From an uncultured delta proteobacterium (GTDB lineage: Bacteria > Desulfobacterota > RBG-13-43-22), in the NCBI GenBank assembly GCA_963743305.1, contig CAVUPH010000039.1, positions 52,913 through 116,912 on the forward strand: DNA of 64,000 nucleotides, in the 5' to 3' direction. Every line of letters starts with the position of its first letter. Within the stretch, counting starts at the first letter, position 1. Under the pieces are notes generated by a model. The model was not told the origin of the DNA. It did no database searches and saw nothing but the letters and a program-made list of their open reading frames with translations. Of the stretch, positions 14,560 to 41,946 are shown piece by piece. The position numbers and the translations under genes are program-made.

Positions 14560-17500
14560 TCATTCGATGTTCGATGTTCGTTTTGTTGTTCTCGTGTCAG
14601 CCCCCCCCGGCTCGATTAACAATGGGATTTCCCCGGTCTGGTTTTTGGCCAAGGAACGATCCAAGAAGGCCCTGGACAACAGGCCGCCCAACCCGACGGC
14701 CAGCAGGTCCGCCACCCTGGATAGGAAGCCCATCGATCCTCCCCCCAAACCGGAGAACAAGAAAGAGGTCAGGGAACCGCCTAATCCCAACCACAGGGTG
14801 GTGCGCAGCATCCGGTTGGGCGGTCGTTCACCGGTCCCTTCGCCAGCTCGGGTCCGGCAGGCATCAGCGTACAGCAACTGGTTGACCGACAGGCTTTGTT
14901 GGAACAGTCGCCCGGCTTCCTGACTTGTTCCGTATCGTAACAGACCGTACGCCCCAGGTCCTCCGGCCCCGACCATCATGGCCAGGCCTTCCGGGATGGT
15001 GTTCCCCCATTCCCTTCCGGACAGCAGACCCTTCTCCGGAACGGTGTATTCCCTTTCCATAATCTCCGGATCCGGAGGTTCCATGGCCAGGGAAAGGCAG
15101 GCCAGGTTGATCCAGAGCGGCTGCCAGACCCCGATTTCCTGCTCCATCGATCCGCTGCGAGAGAACAGTTCGGAAGCGATATCCACCTGGTTGTTCACCA
15201 CCAGGAAGCGGATGCTTTTTCTCAAATTCTCGTAAAATGACCGGCCGCCGGCGATAGCCGCCGGCACTTTGCGGATGTCGTCATCCTCAAGAACCAGGTC
15301 GGCGGTGTGGCGAGCCAGATCGGCCCCTTCCCTCCCCATAGCCATACCTACATCCGCCACCTTGAGGGCCAGGACATCATTGAAACCGTCTCCCACCATG
15401 GCCACTTTCAGTCCGGCGCTCTGGTAGGCCTGAATAATTTCCAGCTTCTGCGTGGGGCTGAGTCGGGCGAAAATATGGGCCCGGGTCGCTACACCCATCA
15501 GGCTGGCGCGGTTCAACCCTTTCAGGTTCAAGGCGTCCAGGATAACCAGCGGCTCCTCCCCGCTCAAACCCAGCTCCTGCCCGATATGGTTGGCGGTCAG
15601 GCTCTGGTCGCCGGTGATCACGGTGGTGCGTATGCCGGCCCGCTGCAGTTCGGCGATCATTTCCCTCGCCCCGGGCCTGATGGGGTCCGCCAGTCCCACC
15701 AGTCCGGACCAGACCAGACTGCCCGATTCCGGATGATCCAACTCACGCTTCTTAACCCGGCCCCAGTAAAAAGCCACCCCCAGGACCCGGAGACCCTGCC
15801 CGGCCATCCGGGAATTCTCCAGTTCGATACGCTCCCGGTCCTCCTCCTCCAGGTTCAGCGTATCTCCGTCCTGGAACCGGAAACGGCACCTTTCCAGGAC
15901 TTCCAGCGGGCTGCCCTTGACCACCGTCAACTTCCGTTCCTCATCCCAACGGTGGATCGTCATCATCAAAGGGGTCTTTTCGCGGCGGTGGCGGATATCC
16001 AGCAGCGGGTGCTCACTGCGCAGGGAGGCCACCGGCAGACCGGCGTCCTCCGCCAGGACGATCAAGGCCTTTTCCGTGGACGAACCTTCCAAAGACCGCG
16101 GTCCGGCGGTTTCCACCAAGACCTCATTACATAAGGTCGTGCAGGTAATCAGCCAGGAGATATCCGGGTCCCTTAAAAGGACGAATTCCCGCCCGTCGCC
16201 ATCCCGGAATCTCCCCCGGGAAACCATCACCCGTTTCCCTCCGGCCTGTATTTCGGCCGCGGTCATCCGGTTGCGGGTCAACGTCCCGGTTTTGTCGAAA
16301 CAGACCACCTGGATCGAGGCCAAGTTGGCCAGCACGCGCAGACGGTGGACCAAAATGCGTTTTTTACGAAGTTCCACGTGCCCCAGGGCAAAAGCGCTCA
16401 GGGCCAGGGTGGAGATTCCGGAAGGGATGGTCGCGGCAATCAAAGCCAGGGTGTCTCGCATGATCCGGACAAGACCGAAGCCGCGCAGCAACGAAAGCAG
16501 CGCATAGGCGAATGAAGCGCCCAGGGCCAGCCGAAAAAAATGGTAGGTTATTTTTTTGATCTCCCCGGCCGCCACGGTCTCCGGGGGGAACACCGCGCCT
16601 AAATACTGCTGCAGGCGTCCCAGGACCGTATGCGTCCCGATGGCCACCACCACGGCCCGCCCACGGCCTTCCGCTACCAGGGTGCCCCGATAAATCATAT
16701 TCCGCCGCTGGGGAATGGGCCAGTCTCCCCCTTTGAGGGCACTGGGGAACTTGTGCTCCGGGAGGCTTTCCCCGGTCAAGGCGGCCTCGTTCAGGCTCAA
16801 ATGGTGCGCCTCGATCAGGCGGGCATCGGCCGGGATTCGCGATCCCACCTGAAGATCCAGCAGGTCCCCGGGGACCACTTTTCCGAATTCAATCTCCCGG
16901 ACCGATCCGTCCCGCACGACCCGGGCCTGGAGCAAAACCCGGTGGCTGACCCGCTTCAGGCTTTTTTCAGCCCGGCTTTCGATGACCGTGCCCACGGCGA
17001 TGTTGGACAGGGCCACCCCCAGGGTCAGCAGACCGTCGAACACCCGACCGGTGATGATAGAAAAACCGGAAGCCCCGGCGATGAGCAGGATGGGCCAGGA
17101 CAGGCTCAGCCCTTTGAGGATGTCGAACAGGGTCCTCCGGGACAAAATAGGCAGCTCATTTACCCCATAACGAACGTTCCGGGCCTCCGCTTCTATTGCG
17201 GACAATCCCATGGTCTCCGAGGTATCCAGCCGCCGGATGAGCTCTTCGACTCCCAGCAGATGCCAGGAATCCGAACCGGGGTCCGGTTGAATCGGTTCCC
17301 CGACCGCTCCGGCATGGCCGGAATCCCGGGAGACGCCCCGGCCCGGTGAATAGCGGCCTATCAGGCGTTCCAGGCTTTCTATCAGGCTCTTTACTGATTG
17401 GGGCGATTGGTAGTGAATCAGGGCGGTCCCGGTCAACGGATTGGCGGCCACCCGGATGATCCCAGCCTTTCCCTTGATTCCGGTTTCCAGAAAGCGGGCC

Positions 17501-17574
17501 AACGCTTCGGACCCCCGGAGGCCGGCGAGCTGAAACCGTATCCTTCCCTTTAGTTGGTGCACCACCCGGATCAT
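14560..17574 (-). CDS. P-type ATPase (P2-like fold) with N-terminal HMA2-like domain; membrane ion-binding residues degenerate
   Basis: Start MIRVVHQLKGRIRF (HMA2-like GRxR) after RBS GGGG. TGES, DKTGT, KGSP, TGD and GDGFND are intact. M4 reads IPSGI instead of PEGL, and M6 WINLACLSLAMEP lacks the xTD residues. Confidence 0.85.
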   Translation of the reverse strand: MIRVVHQLKGRIRFQLAGLRGSEALARFLETGIKGKAGIIRVAANPLTGTALIHYQSPQSVKSLIESLERLIGRYSPGRGVSRDSGHAGAVGEPIQPDPGSDSWHLLGVEELIRRLDTSETMGLSAIEAEARNVRYGVNELPILSRRTLFDILKGLSLSWPILLIAGASGFSIITGRVFDGLLTLGVALSNIAVGTVIESRAEKSLKRVSHRVLLQARVVRDGSVREIEFGKVVPGDLLDLQVGSRIPADARLIEAHHLSLNEAALTGESLPEHKFPSALKGGDWPIPQRRNMIYRGTLVAEGRGRAVVVAIGTHTVLGRLQQYLGAVFPPETVAAGEIKKITYHFFRLALGASFAYALLSLLRGFGLVRIMRDTLALIAATIPSGISTLALSAFALGHVELRKKRILVHRLRVLANLASIQVVCFDKTGTLTRNRMTAAEIQAGGKRVMVSRGRFRDGDGREFVLLRDPDISWLITCTTLCNEVLVETAGPRSLEGSSTEKALIVLAEDAGLPVASLRSEHPLLDIRHRREKTPLMMTIHRWDEERKLTVVKGSPLEVLERCRFRFQDGDTLNLEEEDRERIELENSRMAGQGLRVLGVAFYWGRVKKRELDHPESGSLVWSGLVGLADPIRPGAREMIAELQRAGIRTTVITGDQSLTANHIGQELGLSGEEPLVILDALNLKGLNRASLMGVATRAHIFARLSPTQKLEIIQAYQSAGLKVAMVGDGFNDVLALKVADVGMAMGREGADLARHTADLVLEDDDIRKVPAAIAGGRSFYENLRKSIRFLVVNNQVDIASELFSRSGSMEQEIGVWQPLWINLACLSLAMEPPDPEIMEREYTVPEKGLLSGREWGNTIPEGLAMMVGAGGPGAYGLLRYGTSQEAGRLFQQSLSVNQLLYADACRTRAGEGTGERPPNRMLRTTLWLGLGGSLTSFLFSGLGGGSMGFLSRVADLLAVGLGGLLSRAFLDRSLAKNQTGEIPLLIEPGGADTRTTKRTSNIE

Positions 17575-17794
17575 TGTCCCCTTGCCTGTTTTCGCAAATA
17601 GTCCTATTTTGGTTGGTATTATCCCCCAAAAATAATCAAAAAAGCAACGCCTTCCCGCCCAAGGATTATTTTTTTTCACAGAAATGTAACCTATCGGAAA
17701 TCAAATCTATTCATAAACTATGCCATACTTTCTGTCGACAACAATGATATCCATATTTAAACGACCTGAACCATAAGGGTAACAGGGGGAGAAA

Positions 17795-26521: not shown

Positions 26522-26575
26522 TTAACAAAATTGATAGAATTCCTTCATCAAACTGTCACATTCCTACTATATCTT
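26522..26575 (+). promoter_or_regulatory. Pho-box-like promoter of the zinc-ribbon/HMA2 pair
   Basis: TTAAC(26522), GATAG, TTCAT(26544), GTCAC(26555). CCTTCATCAAACTGTCACA is close to the E. coli Pho box CTGTCATAAAACTGTCAC. TATCTT at 26570; ATG at 26582. Confidence 0.65.
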
Positions 26576-26581
26576 GGGGTC

Positions 26582-26932
26582 ATGGTTGATAAGGACACTA
26601 CTCCAATTCGATGTCCCCACTGCGAGTCCGAGGCTATCTATCGCTATGGCAAGACCTGGAACAAGAAACAGCGTTACTTCTGCCTGGTCTGCAGCCGGCA
26701 ATTCGTCCTCGATCCTGAAAGGGTATCGATGAAGGAGAAACCGACCTGCCCGGCATGCGGCCGGCCCATGCACGTCTATCGCCGTTATCCCCGGGTGATC
26801 CGGTTCCGTTGTTCCGGCTATCCCGACTGCCGCCACTATCTCAAAATGTTTCTCAAAGGAGGAATGTGCTACAATGAGCTACTACGTCCATCAAGTTCCT
26901 GGCCGACTGCGTATCAAATCGCCCTCGATTAA
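26582..26932 (+). CDS. Double zinc-ribbon protein (InsA-like N-terminal ribbon + topoisomerase-type C4 ribbon)
   Basis: CPHC...YRYGK...QRYFCLVCSRQF, then CPAC...FRCSGYPDC; no DDE transposase part and no inverted repeats. Confidence 0.65.
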   Translation: MVDKDTTPIRCPHCESEAIYRYGKTWNKKQRYFCLVCSRQFVLDPERVSMKEKPTCPACGRPMHVYRRYPRVIRFRCSGYPDCRHYLKMFLKGGMCYNELLRPSSSWPTAYQIALD

Positions 26933-27245
26933 AAACAATCAGACGGAAGCGGTGGTGGTGGAAAATCTTCTGAAGGAAATGGAAGGTATTAAATCCACCT
27001 CGGTCAGCACCCTGACCGGCAGCGTGGTAGTAAATTATGACTCTCGGATGGTCAGCGATCAAATGATCATCTCCCGATTGACCGACCTGGGACATTTTAA
27101 GCCGGCCCAGGCCAAAACCAACGACGAATATATCCAGGGGGCCTTTTCCACTGCCGGAGAGATCGTCTGGAAGGCCTTCTTCGGTTCTTTTGTGGATGTC
27201 GCCCTGGCCGGCACGCCGATATCATTTGTCTCCGTTTTGATGTAA
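26874..27245 (+). CDS. HMA2-domain protein with C-terminal hydrophobic segment
   Basis: MSYYVHQVPGRLRIK...GIKSTSVSTLTGSVVVNYD (HMA2 pattern, no CxxC); RBS GGAGG. Confidence 0.75.
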   Translation: MSYYVHQVPGRLRIKSPSIKNNQTEAVVVENLLKEMEGIKSTSVSTLTGSVVVNYDSRMVSDQMIISRLTDLGHFKPAQAKTNDEYIQGAFSTAGEIVWKAFFGSFVDVALAGTPISFVSVLM

Positions 27246-27284
27246 TAATCCCCCAAAGCTCTTTTCTTGTCTCAACCCTCCTTC

Positions 27285-27313
27285 ATGCCCCGGTATCCGG
27301 GGCATCTTTTTTT
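27285..27313 (+). terminator. Rho-independent terminator
   Basis: ATGCCCCGG-TAT-CCGGGGCAT followed by CTTTTTTT. Confidence 0.75.
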
Positions 27314-27454
27314 GGTAACCTGTTCGGCCCGGATTAGAAGTCCGGAGTACCTTTGGAAAATCCTTCGCCGAGACCCGGCAGCCTCACCAAATTGGTGGGA
27401 CCTCCCCAAAGGGGAAAACGCCTTTTAAATGAAAGGACGCCTTCCGGATCTTGT

Positions 27455-27742: not shown

Positions 27743-27903
27743 GGGTGCCTCACCTTCCTGAAATTGGGTACTTACAGTTTCATAACTATTCTCTATGATC
27801 TCTGGGTGCTCTGTGAGAGATCGTCTTTGGTCTTTGGTTGTGAATAGGCGGCGTTAATGAATCCGGTCAATATTATTTTGTGACCGCCAATAACCTAAAT
27901 ACG

Positions 27904-27935
27904 AATTTACCAGGGAAGCGTTACAGGAATATGAA
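27904..27935 (-). promoter_or_regulatory. Pho-box-like promoter
   Basis: Minus strand TTCAT-ATTCCT-GTAAC, then TAAATT 15 nt after the start of the last repeat; a CGGTCA-N11-TGACCG palindrome lies just downstream (27864-27886). Confidence 0.5.
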
Positions 27936-28009
27936 GGAAAGGTTTTTTTTAGGGATTAAACTCGGTGGCCGGACCCGGTTTTCGAGAGGAGAGACGACTG
28001 GATAACTGG

Positions 28010-28045
28010 AATAGGGAACCGGCGGGCAATCACCGGTTCCCTATT
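28010..28045 (-). terminator. Terminator-like hairpin after the metallophosphoesterase gene
   Basis: AATAGGGAACCGG...CCGGTTCCCTATT 13-bp stem. Confidence 0.55.
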
Positions 28046-28134
28046 ATTGGGTTGATTAGTTCAGTCTCTCTTTTGTCAAGTGACCTGTCTTTGACGGCAA
28101 GTCGGTCTCCGCTCCATCACGACCAAGATCTCTT

Positions 28135-29466: not shown

Positions 29467-29506
29467 CCTTCCCTCTCCTTTCAAAATTCTTAAATCTGCT
29501 CTTTTA

Positions 29507-29537
29507 ATTTTAGCGGGCTGTGTTACAGTTTGATGGC
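29507..29537 (-). promoter_or_regulatory. Pho-box-like promoter of the metallophosphoesterase gene
   Basis: Minus strand GCCAT-CAAACT-GTAAC, then TAAAAT 14 nt after the start of the last repeat. Confidence 0.55.
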
Positions 29538-29959
29538 CAATTGGGGTCGATTTGAAGTTCTCCCCCCCTCCCTTTTAGACCCTCTCGGGAAATGAATACG
29601 AAGGAAAGTTTTTTTAGGCTTCGTTCGCGATGGAGGCGAAGAAACCCACCCACCCGATCATTGCGAGGGGTGAAGCGACAAATCGATCCTCGACAATTGG
29701 ATGATGGTCAGATAATGGTTTTTTAACCGAATTGTCATACTGGCCGACGTCCTTCGATTTTGCACCCGGCAATCTTTCAGAAAGCCTACCGAAAACTGAA
29801 TTCCCCTCCTGGAGTTCATTTCCTTCCCTGTAATTGAATCTTTATCAGCCGGTCATCCTCCCGTTACATTCCTCCGGTATGGTACTCCCCAACGTTCGGA
29901 TCACCGAGGTGATTCGGACTTATTAAAGATGTCATAATTGTCTGTACATACCACCGACC

Positions 29960-30043
29960 GTCATCCCCGAGTGTTTTTGTCGGGGATCCAGAATCGTAGC
30001 AGATAGGGGCTGGATTCCCGCCCAGAAGCACTGCGGGAATGAC
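29960..30043. repeat. REP-doublet-like palindromic element
   Basis: GTCATCCCCGAG...TCGGGGATCCAG...CTGGATTCCCGC...GCGGGAATGAC. Confidence 0.7.
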
Positions 30044-30285
30044 GATAAGAGAACATCGAGATAGTCGGTTTTATTATGAGACCGTTAATAATCCCCTCGG
30101 CTTTAAAATTATCTTCTCAAAACAAAATGATCCGCGTGGAAGCGTGAAGGAGGTGAGGCTTTTCGCGAGACGAACCCAACGAGTAAGACAGGTTTTCCTG
30201 TCCAAGGACACTAAATTGTTTACGGGAACGTATAGTAGAACAGACAACATTCTAAAATCTAACAAAAATTTGAAAGGAAAATAAG

Positions 30286-35824: not shown

Positions 35825-37024
35825 TTACGCTTTCAGCAACGGGGCCTTGTCGGTCAGTTCCCAGGGTAGCCCGATGTCCATGCGGCCCACATGTCCGTAA
35901 GCCGCCAGCTTGCGGTAAAAGCCGCCCTTGACCACGGCCGGCTGGTAGCGGAGGTTGAATTGTTTGATGATCCCGGCCAGACGGAAATCAAAATGGTTCT
36001 TGATCAGCCCGGAAATTTCTTTGTCCGGAATGGTGCCGGTGCCGAAGGTCTCCACCTCGATGCTGGCCGGTCGCGGGAGACCGATGGTATAGGTGAGCTG
36101 CACTTCACACTCCCGGGCCAGGCCGGCGGCCACCACGTTTTTGGCCGCGTAGCGGGCCGCGTAGGCCCCGATACGGTCGATTCGCAAGGGATCCTTGCCG
36201 CTCAGAGCCGCGCCGCTATGCCGGGCGTATTCCCCGTAGGTGTCGATGGCCGTCTTCCGGCCGGTCAACCCGGAATGGACAGCCGGTCCGCCGATCAGGA
36301 AAGGCCCGTCGGGATTGATGAAAATGCGGGTTCGGTCGTCCGGCTGGATCTCTTCGTCATGAAAAATCTGGTCCACCACCACTTCCCGGATATCGTCGGT
36401 CAACTTTTTCAAATCGGGCCCTCCGGCCTGGGGCGACATTTTCTGGCTGGCAATCACGGTCACACTGTGAATACGGGAGGGGTGCCCGCCACGGTATTCC
36501 ACGCCCACCTGGGTCTTGCCGTCCGGAGACAGGTAGGGCAGCACTTTTTGCAGACGGGCCGACGTCAGTTTCCTGGCCAGTTTATGGGCCAGCCACAGGG
36601 GCAGAGGGATCAGGGCCGCGGTCTGATTACAGGCGAAACCAAAAATGTTCACCTGGTTCTTGATCAGGATGCGGTCCATCTCCTCTTCCGAAATAGTGGC
36701 CTCATTAAAAAAAGTCTGGTCTTTGGGCGGCAGCTCCTTCAGGCTGGTGATGATGCTGCAGGTCTTGGCGTTGAAGGCCTGGTGCTCATAACCGATCAGG
36801 TTCAAGACCTTCCGGGCCACCCCGGGGAAATCCACCGTGGCGCTGGATTCGAACCGGGCGGCGATAAACAGGATGGCCGTGGCCACGGCGCATTCGGCGA
36901 TTACCCGGGAAAAAGGATCCTGCTGCAGAAAATGGTCCACAATGGCATCGCTGATCTGGTCGCAGAGTTTGTCGGGATGCCCTTCGGTGACCGACTCGGA
37001 CATAAAGACAAAATCCTCTTTCAT
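35825..37024 (-). CDS. Divergent methionine adenosyltransferase (MetK) paralogue
   Basis: SESVTEGHPDK, DGKTQV, GLTGRK, SGKD and AAYGH are retained. GAGDQG reads LIKNQV, GGPxGD reads GGPAVH and KVDR reads RIDR. Confidence 0.85.
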   Translation of the reverse strand: MKEDFVFMSESVTEGHPDKLCDQISDAIVDHFLQQDPFSRVIAECAVATAILFIAARFESSATVDFPGVARKVLNLIGYEHQAFNAKTCSIITSLKELPPKDQTFFNEATISEEEMDRILIKNQVNIFGFACNQTAALIPLPLWLAHKLARKLTSARLQKVLPYLSPDGKTQVGVEYRGGHPSRIHSVTVIASQKMSPQAGGPDLKKLTDDIREVVVDQIFHDEEIQPDDRTRIFINPDGPFLIGGPAVHSGLTGRKTAIDTYGEYARHSGAALSGKDPLRIDRIGAYAARYAAKNVVAAGLARECEVQLTYTIGLPRPASIEVETFGTGTIPDKEISGLIKNHFDFRLAGIIKQFNLRYQPAVVKGGFYRKLAAYGHVGRMDIGLPWELTDKAPLLKA

Positions 37025-37119
37025 GGGGTCTCCTTATTCATCTTATGCTGTCTATACCATTATTCTTAGGGTGATCTTATTGCACACTTTAGAATCGGAA
37101 CTTCTCTGCCGCGTTTTTT

Positions 37120-40100
37120 TCAGCCAAAAATTGATTGATTTTTGGCTGTTTCGTTGATCAGCAGGGGGGCCACGGCCGTCCCGCCGATGACCAGCCCGTC
37201 GATGAGCCCGACCGGCGAAAGCTGCATAAGGGACCGCAACCCGGGCACGAACAGGGTCGAGATCTGCAACAGCACGGAAGCGGCCAGGGCCTGGGTCAAC
37301 AAACGGTTGGGCGGCAGCTTTTCCTTGGAAAAGATACTGATATGGTCGGACCGGCAACTGAAGGCATGGAGCAACTGGCCGATGCTCAGGCTCATGAACG
37401 CCAGGGTATTGGCCTGGGGACCCCGGCCGTAGCGGACCAAGCCGTACCCGTAGGCCGACAGGGCACCGGCGGACAGCACCCCGGATTCGATCATGATCTT
37501 TTTAAAATCCTGCCGGCGGATGATCGGCTCTTTCGGGTCCCGGGGCGGTTTGGTAAGCACATCCGGCTCCGGCAGTTCCATGGCCAGGGCCAATCCGGGG
37601 AAGATGTCCGAGATCAGGTTGATCCAGAGAAGCTGCATGGCGTTCAGCGGCTCGCCCAGGCCGACCGCCAGCGAGCTGAAAACTACGATGATTTCGCTCA
37701 TGTTGGTAGCCAGCAGGAAATGAATGGCCTTGCGGATATTGTTGTAGATGGTCCGGCCCTGCTTGACGGCGATGATCATGGTTTCGAGGCGGTCATCTTC
37801 CAGCACCACGTCGGCCACCTCGCGGGCCACGTCGGTCCCGGATCTTCCCATGGCCACCCCGATGTCGGCCACTTTCAGGGCCGGTCCGTCATTGATCCCG
37901 TCCCCGGTCATGGCCACCACCCGGCCGGCCCGCTGCAGGGCCTGGACGATTTGCAACTTGTGGGCCGGGCTGACCCGGGCAAAGACCTGGACCTTTTCCG
38001 CCAGGGCCTCCAGCAAGTCCGGTTGCAGACTGTCCAGGTTGCTGGAATCCAGGATCTCCAGGTCCTCGTTGCGGTTCAGAGTCAGTGACCGGCCGATGGC
38101 GTAGGCGGTGGCCGACTGGTCGCCGGTGATCATGACCGTATCGATGCCCGCCGTGTGGAACTGGCCGATCAACTCCTTCACCCCTTCCCGGACCGGATCG
38201 CCCATGCCGACCAGGCCGAGCCAGGTCAGGCCGCCGACCGCATCGGGGTCTTCCAGAAGATCCGCCCCGTCCGACAGCAGCGCGTACCCCACGGCCAGAA
38301 CCCGCATGCCTTTTCCGGCCAGGCGCTCATTCTCCATTTCCAGTTCCAGACGGTCCTCTTCCGTGAGCGGTAATCGCTCCCCGTCACGCATCCAGAAATC
38401 GCAAAGGGCTACGACCTCCTGGGGGTTCCCCTTGACCGCCGCTACCCGTTGCCCTTCCTCGGCGGTCCGGTGCAGGGTGATCATGTAGTTTCGGGTTTCC
38501 GTACGCAGGGCCGTTTTTTCAACCGGGAACTGTTCCCGGAGACTCTGAATGTTGACACCGGCCGTCAAGGCCAGGTGAATGAAGGCGTTCTCCGTGGAAG
38601 ATCCGCTGACCAGCACATTACCGTCCTGGAAGACCGCGAGCCCCTTGCCCTGGACTTCACGAGTTTTTTGCTGGTACACGTCGGCGTCGGGGATGAGGGA
38701 GCTGACTTCGCTTTCATTGCAGAGGACTGAAATATGGATGAGCTGAAGCAACTCCGGCCGGATGTAAGGATTGACGACTTCTTCCCCCTGCTTGAACTGA
38801 TCTTTTTCCAGGTGGATGCGCCGCATCCCCACATTGAGCATGACCACGGACATCCGGTTCAGCGTCAGGGTCCCGGTCTTGTCCATGCAGATGGTCTGGA
38901 CCGACCCCAGGGTTTCCACGGCTTCCAGATGCCGGATGAGGACATTGTATTTGCGCATGCGCCGCAAGCCCAGGCCCAACGTGGTGGTGGCCACGGTGGG
39001 CAAGCCTTCCGGGACGGCCGCCACGGCCAGGGAAATGGAGCTCTTCAGCATTTGGAGAAATCCGTAACCCCGAAGAAGGCCGATGACGAACACCAGACCG
39101 CAGACCGCCCCGGAAATCAAGACCAATTGACTGCCCATGGTATCGAGCTGCCGTTCCATGGGGGTTTCCGGGGTCTGGGATTCCCCCATCAGGGTCTGGA
39201 TCCGGCCGATTTCGGTAAACCGGCCGGTGCCCACCACCAGAGCCAATCCCTGCCCCCCGGTCACCAGGGTGCCCATATAGGTCATGTTGGTCCGATCCGC
39301 CAGCGCCACCTCCATCTGCAGCGACGCCCCGTCGGACGCCTGCCCAAAGACCACCAGGGTCTCCGAGGTTTTGGAGACCGGCAGGCTCTCCCCGGTCAAC
39401 GCGGATTCATCGATGGTCAGGTTATGGGCCTCGATCAGCCGGGCATCGGCGGTTATATATGTACCCGGACGCAGCACCAGGATATCCCCCGGGACCACCT
39501 CTTCGGCCCTGATTTCTTCGGCCTTCCCGTCCCGGACTACAAGGGCGTGGGGCCGCACCAGGGTCTTCAGAGAGTGAATGGTCTTCTCGGACTGGCTTTC
39601 GGTGACATAGCCGATGACGGCATTGATCAACACCACCGAGGCGATGACCACGGCATCGGCGATCCCGGCCGTGGCCACGGAAATACCGGCCGCCACCCCC
39701 AGCAAGGCTACCGGGAGAGATTTGAACTGGTCGATGAAGATGCTGAAGCCCGAGCGGGGTACCGACTCGGGCAGGACATTGGGGCCGAATTTTTTCAGGC
39801 GGGAAAGGGACTCCGACTGGGGCAACCCCAGAGCGGAATGGGAGCCGAGCTGTTCCAGCAGATCATGGGCCGCCAGGAAATGCCAGGGTTGGGCCGTCTG
39901 CTCTTCGGAATGGACGACCAGATTCCGGACCTTCCGACGGCTGGAGGCGGTTTTTTGACCGAAAACAGGGGCCAGGGGATGGCGGGATTTCGCCTCGGCC
40001 GATTCCGTCCGGCGGTTTCCAGACTGTCTTTCCGGAAAAAAATGGGGATAAAGGCCGGCCTTTCTTTCCCGGCCTTCCTTTATCCCGTTGTTTGGCTGAA

Positions 40101-40326
40101 AATTAAGGACCAGTGTTCGAAGCAGCGCTCCCAGATCCTCCGGGGTCCGATGACCGTTGAACCGGATGAGTACATGGCCGGTCAGAATATTGGCGGAAAA
40201 AGAATATACTTCCCCGTCTTGGTTCAATTGATTGGCCAGATACTGCTTCAATTCCTCCGAACGGTAAAGGCCCTGGACCCGGTACCGGGCTCGGCCCCGG
40301 ACCACCGTATGGATGGCTTCAACCAC
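37120..40326 (-). CDS. P2A-type (Ca2+/cation) P-type ATPase with N-terminal HMA2-like domain
   Basis: VEAIHTVVRGRARY...ANILTGHVLI (HMA2-like); TGES, VPEGL, DKTGT, KGNP, MITGD and GDGINDGPAL; M5 TNMSE and M6 WINLISD. Confidence 0.9.
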   Translation of the reverse strand: MVEAIHTVVRGRARYRVQGLYRSEELKQYLANQLNQDGEVYSFSANILTGHVLIRFNGHRTPEDLGALLRTLVLNFQPNNGIKEGRERKAGLYPHFFPERQSGNRRTESAEAKSRHPLAPVFGQKTASSRRKVRNLVVHSEEQTAQPWHFLAAHDLLEQLGSHSALGLPQSESLSRLKKFGPNVLPESVPRSGFSIFIDQFKSLPVALLGVAAGISVATAGIADAVVIASVVLINAVIGYVTESQSEKTIHSLKTLVRPHALVVRDGKAEEIRAEEVVPGDILVLRPGTYITADARLIEAHNLTIDESALTGESLPVSKTSETLVVFGQASDGASLQMEVALADRTNMTYMGTLVTGGQGLALVVGTGRFTEIGRIQTLMGESQTPETPMERQLDTMGSQLVLISGAVCGLVFVIGLLRGYGFLQMLKSSISLAVAAVPEGLPTVATTTLGLGLRRMRKYNVLIRHLEAVETLGSVQTICMDKTGTLTLNRMSVVMLNVGMRRIHLEKDQFKQGEEVVNPYIRPELLQLIHISVLCNESEVSSLIPDADVYQQKTREVQGKGLAVFQDGNVLVSGSSTENAFIHLALTAGVNIQSLREQFPVEKTALRTETRNYMITLHRTAEEGQRVAAVKGNPQEVVALCDFWMRDGERLPLTEEDRLELEMENERLAGKGMRVLAVGYALLSDGADLLEDPDAVGGLTWLGLVGMGDPVREGVKELIGQFHTAGIDTVMITGDQSATAYAIGRSLTLNRNEDLEILDSSNLDSLQPDLLEALAEKVQVFARVSPAHKLQIVQALQRAGRVVAMTGDGINDGPALKVADIGVAMGRSGTDVAREVADVVLEDDRLETMIIAVKQGRTIYNNIRKAIHFLLATNMSEIIVVFSSLAVGLGEPLNAMQLLWINLISDIFPGLALAMELPEPDVLTKPPRDPKEPIIRRQDFKKIMIESGVLSAGALSAYGYGLVRYGRGPQANTLAFMSLSIGQLLHAFSCRSDHISIFSKEKLPPNRLLTQALAASVLLQISTLFVPGLRSLMQLSPVGLIDGLVIGGTAVAPLLINETAKNQSIFG

Positions 40327-40332
40327 GTGCGG

Positions 40333-41013
40333 CTATTCGTTCTTCTTGCCCCGTCCCCGGGTGATCTCCGGTGCAGAGGGGGTTTCGCCCTCGCTAGAGA
40401 CGGATCTCGCCCCGCTGCCCTTGGGAAGAAGGGAAGAGGCCACTTCCTTGACTCCCTCCACCACGCCGACCAGCATATCCTTCACTGATCGGACGGCGGT
40501 ATTGCCGATGGCGCCGGCGGCCTCGATGGCGCCGCCCACGGCCACTTTGGCCACTTCCTCGACGTTGCCCCCCACTTCCTTCGTGGCCTCGATCACGCCG
40601 TCCACGGCCCGCCGGGCTACCAGGCCTACGTCGGCCCCGATCTCCGCGGCGCCTTTCACGGCCCCTTTGACTGTCTGGCTGGCCACCGAAACCAAGTCGC
40701 CGCCCACGTCGCTGATGCCCATGATCACGCCCTTGGCCACGCTCTTGGTGCTGAGGATCAGGCCCGTGCCGACCTCCTCCGTAGCCTGGATAGTGCCCTT
40801 GACCACATCCTTGGCGACGCTCAGGCTTTCCGTGACCACCGCGCCGCCGGCCCGCAGGGTCGTGGAGACCGTGTTGCGCACCAGGCTGACGATCTCGGAT
40901 TCGATTTCATTGATGCCCTTCAAGCTGCTGACCACGCCTTCCTTGACGGAAGTGCCGGCCTTCCCGATGGTTTCATCCACATTGACGCCTGTCTTCTCCT
41001 GTTTTTCAGTCAT
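40333..41013 (-). CDS. Gly/Val/Ala-rich protein with 22-residue amphipathic repeats
   Basis: Five tandem 22-mers (VKGTIQATEEVGTGLILSTKSV / AKGVIMGISDVGGDLVSVASQT / ...); TAATG stop-start coupling with the upstream gene. Confidence 0.8.
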   Translation of the reverse strand: MTEKQEKTGVNVDETIGKAGTSVKEGVVSSLKGINEIESEIVSLVRNTVSTTLRAGGAVVTESLSVAKDVVKGTIQATEEVGTGLILSTKSVAKGVIMGISDVGGDLVSVASQTVKGAVKGAAEIGADVGLVARRAVDGVIEATKEVGGNVEEVAKVAVGGAIEAAGAIGNTAVRSVKDMLVGVVEGVKEVASSLLPKGSGARSVSSEGETPSAPEITRGRGKKNE

Positions 41014-41501
41014 TACTTTTCTCCCTTAGGTTTCGATTTCAAAAAAATGTTTAAGGCGTACCAGAAGGCCGTGTACCAGGCCGGGGCCATGAAGTTGCCG
41101 CGGCTGATTTGGTAAATGCCCATGATCAGCAGGGCCCCGAAAGACAGGGTCCCCGCATCCATTTCCCCGCCGGTAAATTTTTTGATCTTATTTTCTACCT
41201 GGTTATATGTTTCAGATACCTGTAGATAAATATTGGAAGAAGGCGAACCGATTTGTTTGGCCTGTCCGGGGAAATAGGTTCGGGCCAGATCTTTCATCAT
41301 TGCCGGGTCCAGGGAATGCTTGATCAGGATGCTGCCGGTGACGGGATTGGCCGCCACCTCATGGATATTGGGATACTTCCCCGCCAGGTCCTTCAGAGAC
41401 TGGAAAAAAGCAACGTCCCCTTTTCTCGATGGGATTCTGAGCCGAAACCGCCCGGAGGTGGCGTGGCTGATATAGGCATCAGAAGGCAAATTGTTGAACA
41501 T
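41013..41501 (-). CDS. HMA2-domain membrane protein
   Basis: AYISHATSGRFRLRIP...VAANPVTGSILIKH; C-terminal hydrophobic GALLIMGIYQ..RG...PAWYTAFWYA. Confidence 0.8.
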   Translation of the reverse strand: MFNNLPSDAYISHATSGRFRLRIPSRKGDVAFFQSLKDLAGKYPNIHEVAANPVTGSILIKHSLDPAMMKDLARTYFPGQAKQIGSPSSNIYLQVSETYNQVENKIKKFTGGEMDAGTLSFGALLIMGIYQISRGNFMAPAWYTAFWYALNIFLKSKPKGEK

Positions 41502-41535
41502 GACGGTTCCCTCCCTTAAAGGCCGGACTAATTAA

Positions 41536-41838
41536 TTACCTTTGATCTTCTGCTTCAATGGTACCGTCCACGCCTGTCGCCGCCATGGCTCCGGACCCGG
41601 CTTCTTCCAATTCGGCCCTGGTCTCGGCTATTAGGTCCTCCACCACTTCCTGGGCCTCGGCCGCCACTTCCCGGCCTTTCTGGTAAAGCAGAAAACCGCC
41701 CTTGATCGCGGCTTTGGCCATGGGCTTGACAACACTGGCCAAAACAGGTATGACCACAGGTGCCAGAATGGAAGAACCGATACCAATGGCCAAACCCGTG
41801 ACGATATTGCCTTTCAGACCGTTATCGAATAGACCCAT
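41536..41838 (-). CDS. DUF5132-like small membrane protein (GxxxG helix + acidic helical tail)
   Basis: GLAIGIG..ILAPVVIP...KPMAKAAIKGG..LY.K.RE..AEA.E..EDL.AE.RAE pattern; RBS AAGGAG. Confidence 0.8.
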   Translation of the reverse strand: MGLFDNGLKGNIVTGLAIGIGSSILAPVVIPVLASVVKPMAKAAIKGGFLLYQKGREVAAEAQEVVEDLIAETRAELEEAGSGAMAATGVDGTIEAEDQR

Positions 41839-41946
41839 ATCATCTGCTCCTTTCTCTTTGAAATAAAAATAATAGCTTTTTTCTCTCTACTATAATAACA
41901 ATTAAATCATTATTTGACTACCCAATAGCAATTTCAGGGAAATTTC

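What the first reader, a model, noticed from the sequence alone, without database searches (positions are those of the whole stretch)
35825..41838. Ferrosome-like organelle operon built on a P2A (Ca-type) pump plus a repurposed MetK
Seen: five tightly linked minus-strand genes. They encode a DUF5132-like GxxxG membrane protein, an HMA2 + membrane-tail protein, a 22-mer amphipathic-repeat protein, an HMA2-fused P-type ATPase and a divergent MetK. Established: ferrosome (fez) clusters combine small GxxxG proteins (FezA-like), HMA-like membrane proteins (FezC-like) and a P1B-6 ATPase with an N-terminal RxR domain to form iron/phosphorus-storing vesicles. Here the pump has P2A motifs (PEGL, TNxxE, NLxSD) and a P2 C-terminal domain instead. 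Inference: a parallel, apparently uncharacterised membrane compartment or platform that concentrates another cation (Ca, Mg or Mn) with phosphate. It sits next to a phosphate-starvation island carrying a second ATPase paralogue and another HMA2 gene.
Basis: partly seen in the sequence, partly recalled or inferred. Interest (0 to 1): 0.85.

Follow-up and report, generated by a model that had tools for sequence, protein, structure and literature searches.

The report
Conserved calcium-pump operon with altered MetK
Five tightly linked genes (a calcium-type ion pump, three small membrane-associated helper proteins and a remodelled copy of the enzyme that normally makes S-adenosylmethionine) form an operon kept together in many bacterial phyla, and it probably builds a specialised membrane platform or compartment for handling calcium-like ions alongside phosphate.

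Summary
Five minus-strand genes (35825-41838) encode DUF5132, a CoBaHMA/HMA_2 protein with a membrane hairpin, an 8 x 22-residue amphipathic repeat protein, a CoBaHMA-fused P2-type (SPCA/LMCA1/SERCA-like) ATPase and a divergent MetK.

The set is strongly conserved. In 80 loci anchored on the ATPase, MetK lies directly downstream in 72. All five genes are in order in 36 of 61 non-cyanobacterial loci, and many of the rest are cut by contig ends. Anchored on DUF5132 instead, 18 of 20 loci carry ATPase plus MetK.

The MetK is a separate paralogue, present beside a housekeeping MetK in 6 of 6 genomes checked. It keeps the triphosphate/metal residues but replaces the methionine-contact residues.

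Pst, PhoU, PhoH and divalent-cation transporters recur nearby in several phyla.

The ferrosome analogy holds for architecture only: R-rich/CoBaHMA pump, HMA-plus-hairpin protein, GxxxG protein. The pump is not P1B-6. Homology to FezA/FezC could not be tested, and nothing here shows a compartment. A PacL/CtpC-type plasma-membrane platform fits equally well.

I found no description of this operon in print. It is a new variant of the scaffolded P-ATPase modules.

The parts
41536..41838 (-). Gene 1: DUF5132 protein (100 aa). It has an N-terminal hydrophobic Gly-rich segment (residues 11-42, containing GLAIGIG) followed by a Glu/Ala-rich acidic helix.
   Evidence: Pfam PF17195, E 3e-10. Hydropathy and charge (the C-terminal half has net charge -9) come. 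The family alignment A5 has near-invariant G19 and G21. It is the only DUF5132 in the genome.
41013..41501 (-). Gene 2: a CoBaHMA (HMA_2) domain protein (162 aa) with a short C-terminal two-helix hydrophobic tail. Its architecture is FezC-like.
   Evidence: Pfam PF19991, E 1.4e-17, covering 9-153 of 154 model positions. The His and GRxR are invariant and there is no CxxC. The tail is conserved. In cyanobacteria the tail is found fused to DUF5132.
40333..41013 (-). Gene 3: a repeat protein (226 aa) with eight 22-residue amphipathic repeats (residues 23-198). It has no transmembrane segment.
   Evidence: lag-22 periodicity; moment peak at 98 degrees, i.e. 11 residues per 3 turns. There is no Pfam, NCBIfam or PDB relative. 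It lies directly upstream of the ATPase in 52 of 80 loci.
37120..40326 (-). Gene 4: a P2-type cation ATPase (1068 aa) with an N-terminal CoBaHMA domain and a conserved linker.
   Evidence: The best NCBIfam models are PMR1-type (618 bits) and SERCA-type (506 bits), both below the equivalog cut-offs. The nearest solved structures are SPCA1, LMCA1 and SERCA1a. The candidate ion-site residues E440, N875, E878, N903, S906 and D907 are invariant in 18 homologues.
35825..37024 (-). Gene 5: a MetK paralogue (399 aa). It retains the triphosphate/metal site and has an altered methionine pocket.
   Evidence: TIGR01034, 365 bits, against 589 bits for the housekeeping copy on another contig. Residue table for 67 paralogues. 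The paralogues form a separate clade.
41839..41946 (-). The promoter region shared with the divergent pyrF gene. It contains a degenerate copy (about 41903-41923) of a 21-nt element that is conserved upstream of the DUF5132 gene in other genomes.
   Evidence: Sequence. Two promoter-like sites were found, which is not above the shuffled expectation. The element was defined.
26531..27245 (+). Associated pair: a zinc-ribbon protein (ORF 26531-26932) and a 123-aa CoBaHMA protein (26874-27245). The same pair lies next to the operon in many other genomes.
   Evidence: 46% identity to the L021 zinc-ribbon protein; HMA_2, E 3.4e-15; 123-aa CoBaHMA ORFs in many loci and zinc-ribbon ORFs in 18 loci, adjacent to each other where compared.
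14560..17679 (-). Associated second ATPase (1039 aa). It is CoBaHMA-fused and keeps the catalytic motifs, but it lacks the M4 glutamate (PSGI) and the M6 aspartate segment.
   Evidence: It belongs to a conserved subfamily, being 47% identical to the second ATPase directly downstream of the MetK paralogue in L088.

Best explanation
The five genes are one conserved operon. It encodes a scaffolded P-type-ATPase membrane module.

Shown:
- The pump is a P2-type ATPase, closest to the Ca2+/Mn2+ pumps SPCA1 and LMCA1. It has a full set of Ca-site-like residues and an N-terminal CoBaHMA domain, a basic, non-metal-binding HMA variant.
- It is always encoded with a dedicated MetK paralogue. Outside cyanobacteria it usually also comes with DUF5132, a CoBaHMA hairpin protein and an amphipathic 22-mer repeat protein.
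- The paralogue keeps the residues that hold and hydrolyse the triphosphate, but replaces those that hold methionine.

Inferred:
- DUF5132 (a Gly-rich transmembrane segment plus a Glu/Ala helix) and the CoBaHMA hairpin protein assemble with the pump into a specialised membrane domain, and the repeat protein coats its cytoplasmic lipid surface.
- The pump removes Ca2+ (possibly Mn2+) from the cytoplasm across that membrane.
- The MetK-derived protein no longer makes S-adenosylmethionine. It binds or hydrolyses tri- or polyphosphate, or adenosylates an anionic acceptor. This would tie cation handling to the phosphate economy, which fits the recurrent Pst/PhoU/PhoH neighbours.

I cannot decide whether the domain is a patch of cytoplasmic membrane (efflux) or a closed Ca-phosphate storage vesicle. 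I put the odds at about even.
For: Operon and conservation:
- The gaps between the genes are 34, -1, 6 and 95 nt.
- MetK lies directly downstream of the ATPase in 72 of 80 loci from Nitrospirota, several deltaproteobacterial/Thermodesulfobacteriota orders, Brocadia, Binatia and Cyanobacteria.
- The MetK start overlaps the ATPase stop by 4 nt in 20 of 72 loci and lies within -40 to +20 nt in 35 of 72.
- All five genes are in order in 36 of 61 non-cyanobacterial loci, and at least 9 of the other 25 are cut by contig ends.
- Of 20 DUF5132-anchored loci, 19 carry the ATPase and 18 also carry the MetK paralogue.
- Both paralogue copies in Chlorogloeopsis sit next to an ATPase of this family.

Pump.

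CoBaHMA signature: together with the published description (PMC8890360, passages).

MetK paralogue:
- 6 of 6 genomes checked hold a housekeeping copy plus the paralogue.
- 68 paralogues separate from 6 housekeeping copies on a branch with SH-aLRT 100.
- H16, D18, K19, E44, R256, K257 and K277 are kept in 67 of 67. The housekeeping E is R57 in 64 of 67, Q is L98 in 47 of 67, S is P99 in 55 of 67, and D is H250 in 67 of 67.
- In human MAT alpha2, Glu70, Gln113 and Asp258 hold methionine, S114A leaves 2.5% activity, and triphosphatase activity is independent of SAM synthesis (PMC6850014, passages).

Scaffold:
- In cyanobacteria DUF5132 is fused to the hairpin tail.
- DUF5132 and CoBaHMA-hairpin genes lie beside ccyA and cax in Microcystis, and DUF5132, the CoBaHMA-DUF454 gene and cax are co-expressed with ccyA (preprint 10.1101/2024.07.07.602159, passages).
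- Fez and PacL provide precedents.
- The repeat protein's periodicity fits an amphipathic helix of 11 residues per 3 turns.

Phosphate and cation link:
- Within 10 kb of the ATPase: PstS in 11 loci, PstB-like ABC in 11, PstC/A in 9 and PhoH-PIN in 9 of 80 loci, in several phyla.
- PhoU in 5, CDF in 7, MntP in 7 and CorA in 5 loci. MgtA-type ATPases are present in L015 and L021.
Against: - There is no localisation, binding or transport evidence.
- The conserved 21-nt element upstream of the operon was not found upstream of pstS, so co-regulation with the Pho regulon is not shown.
- In this window the operon lies about 22 kb from pstS.
- The repeat protein is missing from all 19 cyanobacterial loci and from several others, so it is not part of the core.
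- In some metagenome proteins the repeat region is fused to a MucR/Ros DNA-binding domain. This does not fit a pure lipid-coat role.
- DUF5132 shows no significant sequence similarity to DUF1490 (1 of 24, E 0.036).
- The pump scores below the equivalog cut-offs of every named P2 subfamily, and the residue at the SERCA Glu908 position is Gln. The transported ion is therefore not settled.
- The mapping of the MetK residues to human numbering is by motif and offset, not by a computed alignment to the human protein.
Confidence: 0.5

Rival explanations
1. The operon builds a closed, lipid-bounded intracellular compartment, parallel to the ferrosome, into which the pump loads Ca (or Mg/Mn). The cation is stored there with phosphate or polyphosphate.
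For: - The parts list matches fez clusters at the level of architecture: an R-rich pump, an HMA-plus-two-helix protein and a GxxxG protein. FezB and FezC are required for ferrosomes.
- DUF5132 and CoBaHMA-hairpin genes neighbour ccyA in a cyanobacterium that makes Ca inclusions, and DUF5132 and the CoBaHMA-DUF454 gene are co-expressed with ccyA.
[quoted passage not shown] Chlorogloeopsis fritschii PCC 9212 is reported to have many Ca-rich polyphosphate inclusions (PMC8890360, passages). The related strain PCC 6912 carries two ATPase-MetK pairs.
- The repeat protein has the periodicity of lipid-surface-binding helices.
- P-type pumps move ions out of the cytoplasm, which suits loading of a lumen.
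- ParA-like genes lie near the operon in 5 of 80 loci and a short ParA-like ORF lies in the window.
- Phosphate genes are nearby.
Against: - Nothing has been imaged, and the carriers of the five-gene form found here are metagenome-assembled genomes.
- The pump is not P1B-6.
- No D[Y/F]SCA ATPase was found in 20 DUF5132-anchored loci, so DUF5132 is not visibly a component of fez clusters.
- Iron-homeostasis neighbours are replaced by phosphate and divalent-cation genes.
- The same parts are explained by a plasma-membrane platform.
Confidence: 0.3
2. An 'effluxosome'-type platform in the cytoplasmic membrane. DUF5132 acts like PacL proteins, as a small transmembrane scaffold and chaperone that stabilises and clusters its P-ATPase. 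The module simply exports Ca2+ or Mn2+, for example the cation released when polyphosphate is consumed under phosphate starvation.
For: - PacL1 is a 93-residue protein with one transmembrane segment and cytoplasmic Glu/Ala repeats. It is encoded in an operon with an R-rich P-ATPase and is needed for the pump's stability and clustering. Its transmembrane GXXG is needed for assembly (preprint 10.1101/2021.10.01.462712 and PMC13043812, passages).
- DUF5132 has the same layout.
- Neighbouring CDF, MntP, CorA and MgtA genes point to cation homeostasis.
- CPC-type P1B ATPases lie next to the operon in 4 of 20 DUF5132-anchored loci.
Against: - There is no significant DUF1490 similarity.
- DUF5132 has no C-terminal metal-binding motif.
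- This reading does not explain the amphipathic repeat protein or the MetK paralogue.
Confidence: 0.3
3. The MetK paralogue is still a working S-adenosylmethionine synthetase. It would be an isoenzyme supplying SAM for phosphorus-free lipid synthesis or methylation during phosphate starvation, and its linkage to the pump would be regulatory only.
For: - It passes the TIGR01034 cut-off.
- Methyltransferase, glycosyltransferase and OlsB-like genes lie in the window and in some other loci.
- All catalytic triphosphate residues are kept.
Against: - The side chains that hold methionine in solved MATs are replaced: R57 in 64 of 67, L98 in 47 of 67 and H250 in 67 of 67. The gating-loop Ser is Pro in 55 of 67 and GAGDQG is lost.
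- A housekeeping MetK is present in all 6 genomes checked.
- The 4-nt overlap with the pump gene in 20 of 72 loci argues for a direct partnership.
Confidence: 0.1
4. An ordinary Ca2+ efflux pump whose neighbours are small regulators, comparable to phospholamban or sarcolipin for SERCA. There would be no higher-order platform.
For: P2-type pumps are commonly regulated by small single-pass membrane proteins (established knowledge, recalled). The pump itself looks complete.
Against: - Three different accessory proteins plus an enzyme paralogue are conserved across phyla.
- The fusion of DUF5132 with the hairpin tail and the eight-repeat coat-like protein suggest more than a single inhibitory peptide.
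Confidence: 0.1

Closest known systems
Ferrosome (fez) gene clusters: FezA, FezB, FezC (Grant et al.; preprint 10.1101/2020.01.10.902569, passages read)
   Same: Both have a P-type ATPase with an N-terminal RxR/RxRxR motif. Both have a companion protein with an HMA-type, R-rich N-terminus and two membrane helices, and a small protein with a hydrophobic GxxxG region. Both are compact operons found mostly in anaerobes.
   Different: The pump here is P2-type (PEGL, Cation_ATPase_N and _C), not P1B-6 (D[Y/F]SCA, HNxxT). This operon has extra genes, the 22-mer repeat protein and the MetK paralogue. Its neighbours are phosphate and divalent-cation genes rather than iron genes. Sequence homology to FezA and FezC was not tested, and no organelle has been shown.
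PacL/CtpC metal efflux platforms ('effluxosomes') of mycobacteria (preprint 10.1101/2021.10.01.462712; PMC13043812, passages read)
   Same: A protein of about 100 residues, with one Gly-containing transmembrane segment and a Glu/Ala-rich cytoplasmic helix, is encoded directly with an R-rich P-type ATPase.
   Different: DUF5132 is not DUF1490 (1 of 24 at E 0.036) and has no metal-binding tail. The pump is P2-type. Three further conserved partners are present.
The ccyA (calcyanin) neighbourhood of Microcystis aeruginosa PCC 7806 (preprint 10.1101/2024.07.07.602159, passages read)
   Same: It holds two DUF5132 proteins and a CoBaHMA protein with a helical-hairpin (DUF454-like) tail, beside a Ca2+ transporter. 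DUF5132, the CoBaHMA-DUF454 gene and cax are co-expressed with the marker gene for intracellular Ca-carbonate inclusions.
   Different: There the transporter is a Ca2+/H+ exchanger and the key protein is calcyanin. No MetK paralogue, repeat protein or CoBaHMA-fused ATPase is reported in the passages I read.
P2A Ca2+ pumps: SPCA1/PMR1, Listeria LMCA1, SERCA1a
   Same: These are the best structural relatives (503, 475 and 392 bits). All catalytic motifs are shared. The M4 PEGL Glu, the M5 Asn and Glu, and the M6 Asn, Ser and Asp are kept. The positions are named by recalled SERCA numbering.
   Different: The pump has an extra N-terminal CoBaHMA domain and a conserved linker of about 70 residues. 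It has Gln at the SERCA Glu908 position. It scores below the NCBIfam equivalog cut-offs for PMR1, SERCA and PMCA types.
Canonical MetK (S-adenosylmethionine synthetase)
   Same: It has all three MetK domains, passes TIGR01034, and keeps the triphosphate/Mg/K-site residues.
   Different: The methionine-contact Glu, Gln and Asp are Arg, Leu and His. The gating-loop Ser is Pro. GAGDQG and HGGGAF are altered. There are two family-specific insertions. It forms a separate clade and is always extra to a housekeeping copy.

Membership tests
P2-type (Ca-type) P-ATPase | Catalytic motifs TGES, DKTGT, TGD and GDGxND, plus the Cation_ATPase_N and Cation_ATPase_C domains | tested here: met
   all motifs and all five Pfam domains are present.
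P2-type (Ca-type) P-ATPase | Ca-site residues: M4 PEGL Glu, M5 Asn and Glu, M6 Asn, Thr/Ser and Asp, and M8 Glu (positions named by recalled SERCA numbering) | tested here: inconclusive
   E440, N875, E878, N903, S906 and D907 are invariant in 18 homologues. The M8 position is Gln984 (my reading of the alignment to SPCA1). No alignment to SERCA was printed.
PMR1-, SERCA- or PMCA-type equivalogs (NCBIfam) | Score above the curated equivalog cut-off | tested here: not met
   618 bits against a cut-off of 798 (PMR1), 506 against 703 (SERCA) and 392 against 507 (PMCA).
CoBaHMA / Pfam HMA_2 | Pfam PF19991 match, a conserved His before strand 1, conserved basic residues (GRxRxK/R), and no CxxC | tested here: met
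   P0004 scores 64.5 bits and the 123-aa protein 56.7 bits. The pump N-terminus scores 26.8 bits or 30.5 bits. The His and GRxR are invariant in 10 domains and there is no CxxC. The features are as described in PMC8890360.
DUF5132 | Pfam PF17195 match above the cut-off | tested here: met
   40.4 bits against a cut-off of 25. 24 of 24 family members match.
MetK (functional S-adenosylmethionine synthetase) | TIGR01034 score above the cut-off | tested here: met
   365 bits against a cut-off of 309.
MetK (functional S-adenosylmethionine synthetase) | Methionine-binding Glu, Gln and Asp, the gating-loop Ser, and the GAGDQG motif | tested here: not met
   The residues are R57, L98, H250 and P99, with (R/K)NQV in place of GAGDQG. 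The changes are conserved across 67 paralogues. Their roles are taken from PMC6850014. The numbering was mapped by motif and offset.
Ferrosome fez cluster | FezB-type P1B-6 ATPase with D[Y/F]SCA and HNxxT | tested here: not met
   The pump is P2-type.
Ferrosome fez cluster | N-terminal R-rich (RxR/RxRxR) motif on the pump and on a membrane protein with an HMA annotation and two transmembrane helices (FezC-like) | tested here: met
   RGRARYR is present in the pump and GRFRLR in P0004. P0004 has a two-helix tail.
Ferrosome fez cluster | A small protein with a hydrophobic GxxxG region (FezA-like) | tested here: met
   GLAIGIG lies in the hydrophobic segment of P0005, and G19 and G21 are near-invariant. 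This is a match at motif level only.
Ferrosome fez cluster | Sequence homology of the small proteins to FezA and FezC | not tested
   No Fez sequence could be obtained with the tools, and the supplementary tables are closed. Indirectly, 0 of 20 DUF5132-anchored loci hold a D[Y/F]SCA ATPase.
Ferrosome fez cluster | Formation of membrane-bounded mineral granules | not testable with these tools
   This needs microscopy.
PacL (DUF1490) P-ATPase scaffold | Pfam DUF1490 membership | tested here: not met
   1 of 24 DUF5132 proteins matched, at E 0.036.
PacL (DUF1490) P-ATPase scaffold | A small protein with one transmembrane segment containing a Gly motif and a cytoplasmic Glu/Ala-rich helix, in an operon with a P-ATPase | tested here: met

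The most novel reading that the evidence does not exclude
CoBaHMA-organised pump modules form one superfamily of bacterial mineral-storage compartments. Ferrosomes (P1B-6, iron), the calcyanin system (Ca carbonate) and this operon would be variations on one plan. This operon would then build a widespread Ca(Mn)-phosphate or polyphosphate organelle, a bacterial counterpart of the acidocalcisome. It would be coated by a 22-mer amphipathic repeat protein and serviced by a MetK-derived enzyme that has become a tri- or polyphosphate-handling enzyme, or an adenosyltransferase for an anionic acceptor. The organelle would occur in Nitrospirota, sulfate reducers and syntrophs, anammox bacteria and heterocystous cyanobacteria.
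Probability: 0.27. Interest if true: 0.92.

Novelty: new variant of a known kind. Interest (0 to 1): 0.77.

Why it matters
Bacterial lipid-bounded organelles and pump 'platforms' (ferrosomes, effluxosomes, intracellular carbonate inclusions) have each been described only recently, and each from one lineage or metal.

This operon links them through shared parts: the CoBaHMA/R-rich domain, a Gly-zipper small protein and a hairpin protein. It extends the plan to a calcium-type pump found in at least five phyla, including cultured cyanobacteria.

It also contains a clear case of neofunctionalisation of one of the most conserved enzymes in biology, MetK. The triphosphate site is kept and the methionine pocket is rebuilt. 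That gives a direct biochemical entry point.

The recurrent phosphate-uptake neighbours suggest a missing link between divalent-cation and phosphate or polyphosphate homeostasis in anaerobic sediments and soils.

In the libraries I could search, no paper mentions ferrosomes and CoBaHMA together. The word CoBaHMA is held by 5 papers (4 listed). I checked two of the four listed for 'ferrosome' and neither contains it. I found no paper describing this operon: DUF5132 occurs in a single paper, and searches found nothing relevant. The key CoBaHMA paper (Proteins 2024) is not held and may describe the ATPase fusion.

Tried and rejected
Searches and checks that led nowhere or were weak:

- Plasmid search. 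A tblastn of the MetK paralogue against 72,556 plasmid records found 185 records, all below 60% identity (48.5% at most among the 25 listed). I read these as canonical MetKs. No paralogue-type copy was found and there was no link to the Fischerella ccyA megaplasmid.
- Rfam at gathering thresholds on the window and four loci (123,691 bases): 0 matches. The conserved upstream element is therefore not a described RNA family.
- PDB sequence searches with the repeat-protein profile and with P0004: nothing significant (best E 0.055; 0 hits).
- EAL (31 of 80 loci) and DUF3562 (19 of 80 loci) looked like further partners. Neither family is found in the window's own genome, which is 90% complete. I dropped them from the core.
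- The idea that the upstream element is a Pho box. The matrix gave 38 hits in 1.41 Mb: 31 upstream of DUF5132 and none upstream of pstS. The matrix was trained on the DUF5132 upstream regions, so the 31 are partly circular. The single window hit near pstS is just the ribosome-binding site plus start codon.
- The idea that the element starts a leader peptide. The short frames vary in length and are conserved only in the first six codons, and the 'Asp' codon was GAC in every instance I read by eye. A DNA-level signal (a -35-like T(A/G)GACA) seems more likely. This is not resolved.
- The 721-aa P1B-like ATPase in L087, preceded by DUF5132 and CoBaHMA genes, looked like a fez cluster. It has DYCTG instead of D[Y/F]SCA and lacks DKTGT, so it is not FezB.
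- Sequencing runs. 20 runs hold small shares of the stretch, and I draw no habitat from them. Laid on the stretch, contigs of one RNA library (X17), mostly 88-95% alike and therefore from relatives, touch 27 of 30 bins. One contig lies on both sides of the repeat-gene/ATPase junction. An RNA library can hold DNA and contigs show no transcript ends, so this is at most a weak hint of expression.
- Literature searches with no useful hit.
- Papers not held: Gaschignard et al. 2024. I recall only its abstract.
- Supplementary tables of the ferrosome and PacL papers are closed. They list GxxxG and R-rich proteins and PacL-like/P-ATPase pairs, and they may bear on the novelty and on Fez/PacL homology.

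No fold or complex was obtained, so no statement on binding rests on prediction.

Full report
**What is there**

On the minus strand between 35825 and 41838 lie five ORFs. The gaps between them are 34 nt, a 1-nt overlap, 6 nt and 95 nt (translations).

- Gene 1 (41536-41838, 100 aa) is a DUF5132 protein (PF17195, E 3e-10). It has a Gly-rich hydrophobic segment at residues 11-42 and an acidic Glu/Ala-rich C-terminal half.
- Gene 2 (41013-41501, 162 aa) matches almost the whole HMA_2 model (PF19991, E 1.4e-17). That covers a CoBaHMA domain plus a short two-helix hydrophobic tail.
- Gene 3 (40333-41013, 226 aa) has no family in Pfam, NCBIfam or the PDB. It consists of eight 22-residue repeats. 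Self-similarity peaks only at lags 22 and 44. Across 28 homologues the repeat's hydrophobic moment peaks at 98 degrees, which is 11 residues per 3 turns. By recall, this is the periodicity of the lipid-surface helices of apolipoproteins, perilipins and alpha-synuclein.
- Gene 4 (37120-40326, 1068 aa) is a complete P-type ATPase with Cation_ATPase_N and _C domains. An N-terminal CoBaHMA domain precedes them.
- Gene 5 (35825-37024, 399 aa) is a MetK homologue. It scores 365 bits on TIGR01034, against 589 bits for the genome's other MetK.

**The pump**

Its nearest solved relatives are human SPCA1 (503 bits), Listeria LMCA1 (475 bits) and SERCA1a (392 bits). In an alignment of 18 homologues, the residues at the positions of the Ca sites are invariant. 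These are E440 in PEGL, N875 and E878 in M5, and N903, S906 and D907 in M6. The position that is Glu908 in SERCA (recalled numbering) is Gln984.

The pump scores below the curated equivalog cut-offs for the PMR1, SERCA and PMCA types. I therefore call it a distinct P2 clade with a Ca2+/Mn2+-type site. I do not file it as a member of a named subfamily.

The N-terminal domain has the published CoBaHMA signature: a His before strand 1, GRxRxK/R, and no CxxC (PMC8890360 passages). This is also the 'R-rich motif' described for FezB, FezC and related P1B ATPases (preprint 10.1101/2020.01.10.902569, passages).

Of the 120 best homologues listed, I count 102 that carry PF19991. The fusion is therefore a large family.

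**Conservation**

A scan of one genome per species gave 585 confirmed relatives, of which the best 80 loci were kept. They come from Nitrospirota, several deltaproteobacterial/Thermodesulfobacteriota orders, Candidatus Brocadia, Binatia, Deferrimicrobium and heterocystous or related cyanobacteria.

I searched their ORFs with the five window proteins and then with family HMMs. The results were as follows.

- A MetK homologue lies directly downstream of the ATPase in 72 of 80 loci.
- The repeat protein is present in 52 loci and DUF5132 in 63.
- All five genes lie in the window's order in 36 of 61 non-cyanobacterial loci. At least 9 of the remaining 25 are cut by contig ends. Others are variants, with DUF5132 and the hairpin gene a few kb further upstream, or with no repeat gene.
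- The 19 cyanobacterial loci have reduced forms. Eight have a long DUF5132, the ATPase and MetK. Four have the ATPase and MetK. Seven have the ATPase alone within the strict distances.
- The MetK start overlaps the ATPase stop by 4 nt in 20 of 72 loci and lies within -40 to +20 nt in 35 of 72.

I then used DUF5132 as an independent anchor. It occurs in 27 of 301 genomes sampled from the window's phylum. Of 20 such loci from 19 genomes, 19 hold the PEGL ATPase and 18 also hold the MetK paralogue. Some of these genomes may also be in the first set.

Within the window's own family the repeat gene is patchy. It was found in 11 of 20 genomes of the family, and in 0 of 20 genomes drawn from other families of the phylum.

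The window's paralogue nests among Nitrospirota sequences in the MetK tree, next to a MAG titled 'delta proteobacterium'. The module therefore moves between lineages.

**The MetK paralogue**

All 6 genomes checked hold a housekeeping MetK (541-602 bits) plus one or two paralogues (365-404 bits). These are the window's genome plus one each from Nitrospirota, Chlorogloeopsis, Brocadia, Binatia and a delta MAG. Both Chlorogloeopsis paralogues sit downstream of an ATPase of this family.

In a quick maximum-likelihood tree, 68 paralogues separate from 6 housekeeping copies on a branch with SH-aLRT 100. The careful search did not finish.

Across 67 paralogues, the residues that hold and cleave the triphosphate are kept:

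| Residue(s) | Kept in |
|---|---|
| H16, D18, K19, E44, D168, R256, K257, K277 | 67 of 67 |
| D278, D283 | 66 of 67 |
| K170 | 62 of 67 |
| Lys changed to R281 | 66 of 67 |

Other positions are changed relative to the housekeeping copy:

| Housekeeping residue or motif | Paralogue | Frequency |
|---|---|---|
| Glu | R57 | 64 of 67 |
| Gln-Ser of the gating loop | L98 and P99 | 47 and 55 of 67 |
| GAGDQG | (R/K)NQV | not counted as a whole; the central Asp is Asn in 49 of 67 |
| Asp | H250 | 67 of 67 |
| GG | G-E265 | 64 of 67 |
| HGGGAF | H-S270-GAAL | S270 in 67 of 67 |

There are also two family-specific insertions.

In human MAT alpha2, the methionine amino and carboxyl groups are held by Glu70, Asp258 and Gln113. 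S114A leaves 2.5% activity. The triphosphatase activity is independent of SAM formation (PMC6850014, passages). By motif and constant offsets these residues map to R57, H250, L98 and P99. This mapping is my inference; no alignment to the human protein was printed.

I conclude that the paralogue very probably does not make SAM in the canonical way but still binds a triphosphate. It may be a tri- or polyphosphatase, a sensor, or an adenosyltransferase for an anionic acceptor, since its pocket has turned from acidic to basic. Which of these it is remains open.

**The accessory proteins**

DUF5132 and the CoBaHMA hairpin gene are adjacent, in that order, in most non-cyanobacterial loci and in several extra copies. 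In cyanobacteria the DUF5132 protein carries the hairpin tail itself. The HMA_2 model matches it at positions 89-152, and the tail aligns with that of P0004. This fusion argues that the two act in one complex.

In Microcystis, two DUF5132 genes and a CoBaHMA/DUF454-tail gene lie beside ccyA and a Ca2+/H+ exchanger. One DUF5132 gene, the CoBaHMA/DUF454-tail gene and the exchanger are co-expressed with ccyA (preprint 10.1101/2024.07.07.602159, passages).

DUF5132 has the same layout as mycobacterial PacL proteins, which have one transmembrane segment with a Gly motif and cytoplasmic Glu/Ala repeats. PacL proteins stabilise and cluster R-rich P-ATPases in plasma-membrane 'effluxosomes'. Sequence similarity to DUF1490 is not significant, at 1 of 24 proteins with E 0.036.

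**Context**

All four HMA_2 domains of the 4.9-Mb genome lie within 25 kb of this window. Three other elements lie near the operon.

- The first is a second CoBaHMA-fused ATPase at 14560-17679. It is 35% identical to the first. It keeps DKTGT, TGES and GDGxND but has PSGI for PEGL, and it lacks the M6 segment with the Asp. It belongs to a conserved subfamily that lies directly behind the MetK paralogue in L088 (47% identity).
- The second is a zinc-ribbon gene plus a 123-aa CoBaHMA gene at 26531-27245. This pair recurs near the operon elsewhere.
- The third is a group of phosphate genes: PstSCAB at 9635-13317, a second PBP_like_2 ABC system at 4866-8908, PhoH-PIN and Metallophos genes.

The phosphate link is not peculiar to this genome. 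Within 10 kb of the ATPase in the 80 loci, I found the following.

| Neighbour | Loci (of 80) |
|---|---|
| PstS | 11 |
| PstB-like ABC | 11 |
| PstC/A | 9 |
| PhoH-PIN | 9 |
| LMW phosphatase/ArsC-type | 8 |
| CDF | 7 |
| MntP | 7 |
| PhoU | 5 |
| CorA | 5 |
| ParA-like | 5 |

These are spread over Nitrospirota, Brocadia, Geobacteraceae, Syntrophus, Desulfobaccales and cyanobacteria. MgtA-type ATPases are present in L015 and L021. Related genomes are not independent, so I give no statistic.

**How it most likely works**

Shown:
- It is a conserved operon.
- The pump has a Ca-type site and a basic, non-metal HMA domain.
- The MetK-derived partner has an intact triphosphate site and a rebuilt substrate pocket.
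- There are two membrane-anchored small partners, fused in some lineages.
- There is a soluble amphipathic repeat partner.
- Phosphate and cation genes are recurrent neighbours.

Inferred:
- The small proteins organise the pump into a specialised membrane domain whose cytoplasmic face is coated by the repeat protein.
- The pump clears Ca2+ (or Mn2+) from the cytoplasm across it.
- The MetK-derived protein handles tri- or polyphosphate at that site.

Two versions fit about equally well. It is supported by the ferrosome and calcyanin parallels and by the reported Ca-rich polyphosphate inclusions in Chlorogloeopsis fritschii PCC 9212 (PMC8890360). The second is a PacL-like efflux platform in the cytoplasmic membrane, for instance to dispose of Ca2+ released when polyphosphate is consumed.

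**Against and open**

- There is no localisation, transport, binding or expression experiment.
- The operon-specific 21-nt element was not found at pst genes.
- The repeat gene is dispensable in cyanobacteria.
- Some repeat domains are fused to MucR/Ros domains.
- The ion is not established.
- Homology to FezA and FezC is untested.
- The Proteins 2024 CoBaHMA paper and the supplements of the ferrosome and PacL papers could not be read. They may already list parts of this.

**Verdict**

It is a new variant of the scaffolded P-ATPase modules (Fez, PacL), built on a Ca-type pump and joined to a neofunctionalised MetK. The 'organelle' reading stays a good but unproven hypothesis, at about 0.3.

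Noticed in passing
L011-L090, 17-258 nt upstream of the DUF5132 genes (for example L037:8167, L017:8319, L029:443); a degenerate copy lies at window 41903-41923 (-): There is a 21-nt element with consensus (A/G)TAGGYAAGTAATGAAAGA, followed about 7 nt later by T(A/G)GACA. At score 20 or more there are 38 hits in 1.41 Mb. 31 of them lie on the coding strand just upstream of DUF5132, and none lies at pstS. It may be an operator or promoter element of a dedicated regulator, or the start of a tiny upstream ORF. It matches no Rfam family.
   Followed up: partly
window 14560-17679 (-); L088:14494-17538; L065:7034-10006: This is a conserved second subfamily of CoBaHMA-fused P2-like ATPases. They keep DKTGT, TGES and GDGxND but have P(S/A)G(I/L) instead of PEGL, and a 5-residue deletion removes the M6 Asp. 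The window copy and the L088 copy (47% identical) were aligned and share these features. The L065 copy is grouped with them only by its similarly low NCBIfam scores. They are catalytically competent but lack a canonical ion site, so the substrate is unknown.
   Followed up: partly
window 26531-27245 (+): A zinc-ribbon protein (46% identical to the one in L021) overlaps the start of a 123-aa CoBaHMA protein. The same pair lies near the operon in many loci, and zinc-ribbon ORFs are present in 18 of 80. It is a candidate regulator pair.
   Followed up: partly
L087:2450-6378: Directly upstream of the P2 operon in a Desulfobacteraceae MAG lie DUF5132, short CoBaHMA, DUF5132 and CoBaHMA-hairpin genes, followed by a 721-aa P1B-like ATPase. 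That ATPase has an RxRxRxR N-terminus, lacks DKTGT (it has AGRGS instead) and has DYCTG in M4. This is a fez-like layout around an apparently inactive pump.
   Followed up: partly
L044:9267-9836; L040:9315-9890: Cyanobacterial DUF5132 proteins (about 190 aa) carry at their C-terminus the hairpin tail that the window encodes on the separate CoBaHMA protein. This is a gene fusion linking the two accessory proteins.
   Followed up: yes
proteins P0128, P0130-P0132, P0135, P0138, P0141: Some metagenome homologues of the repeat protein are fused to a MucR/Ros zinc-finger domain (PF05443). Weaker relatives carry response-regulator or GGDEF domains. One cultured carrier of a 235-aa homologue is named, Noviherbaspirillum autotrophicum.
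   Followed up: no
window 18446-32124: This stretch holds genes typical of phosphorus-sparing membrane remodelling and phosphate scavenging. They are a methyltransferase (18446-19381), a GT4 glycosyltransferase (21246-22847), PhoH-PIN (22429-23730), an OlsB-like GNAT (24464-25438) with an acyltransferase (25474-25980), and two Metallophos phosphoesterases (28828-29484, 30286-32124).
   Followed up: no
window 4866-8908 (+) and 13788-14246 (-): There is a second PBP_like_2 ABC transporter set beside PstSCAB. A short ParA/MinD-like ORF (152 aa) lies directly downstream of the second ATPase. Full-length ParA-like genes lie near the operon in 5 of the 80 loci.
   Followed up: no
window 36001-40000: G+C is 0.60-0.62 over the ATPase and MetK genes, against 0.50-0.55 in the flanks. 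The MetK paralogue nests among Nitrospirota sequences. Both fit horizontal acquisition.
   Followed up: no
L138, L142, L150, L153: CPC-type P1B ATPases (about 730-770 aa) lie next to the operon in 4 of 20 DUF5132-anchored loci. In L138 the P1B ATPase has its own upstream CoBaHMA gene.
   Followed up: no
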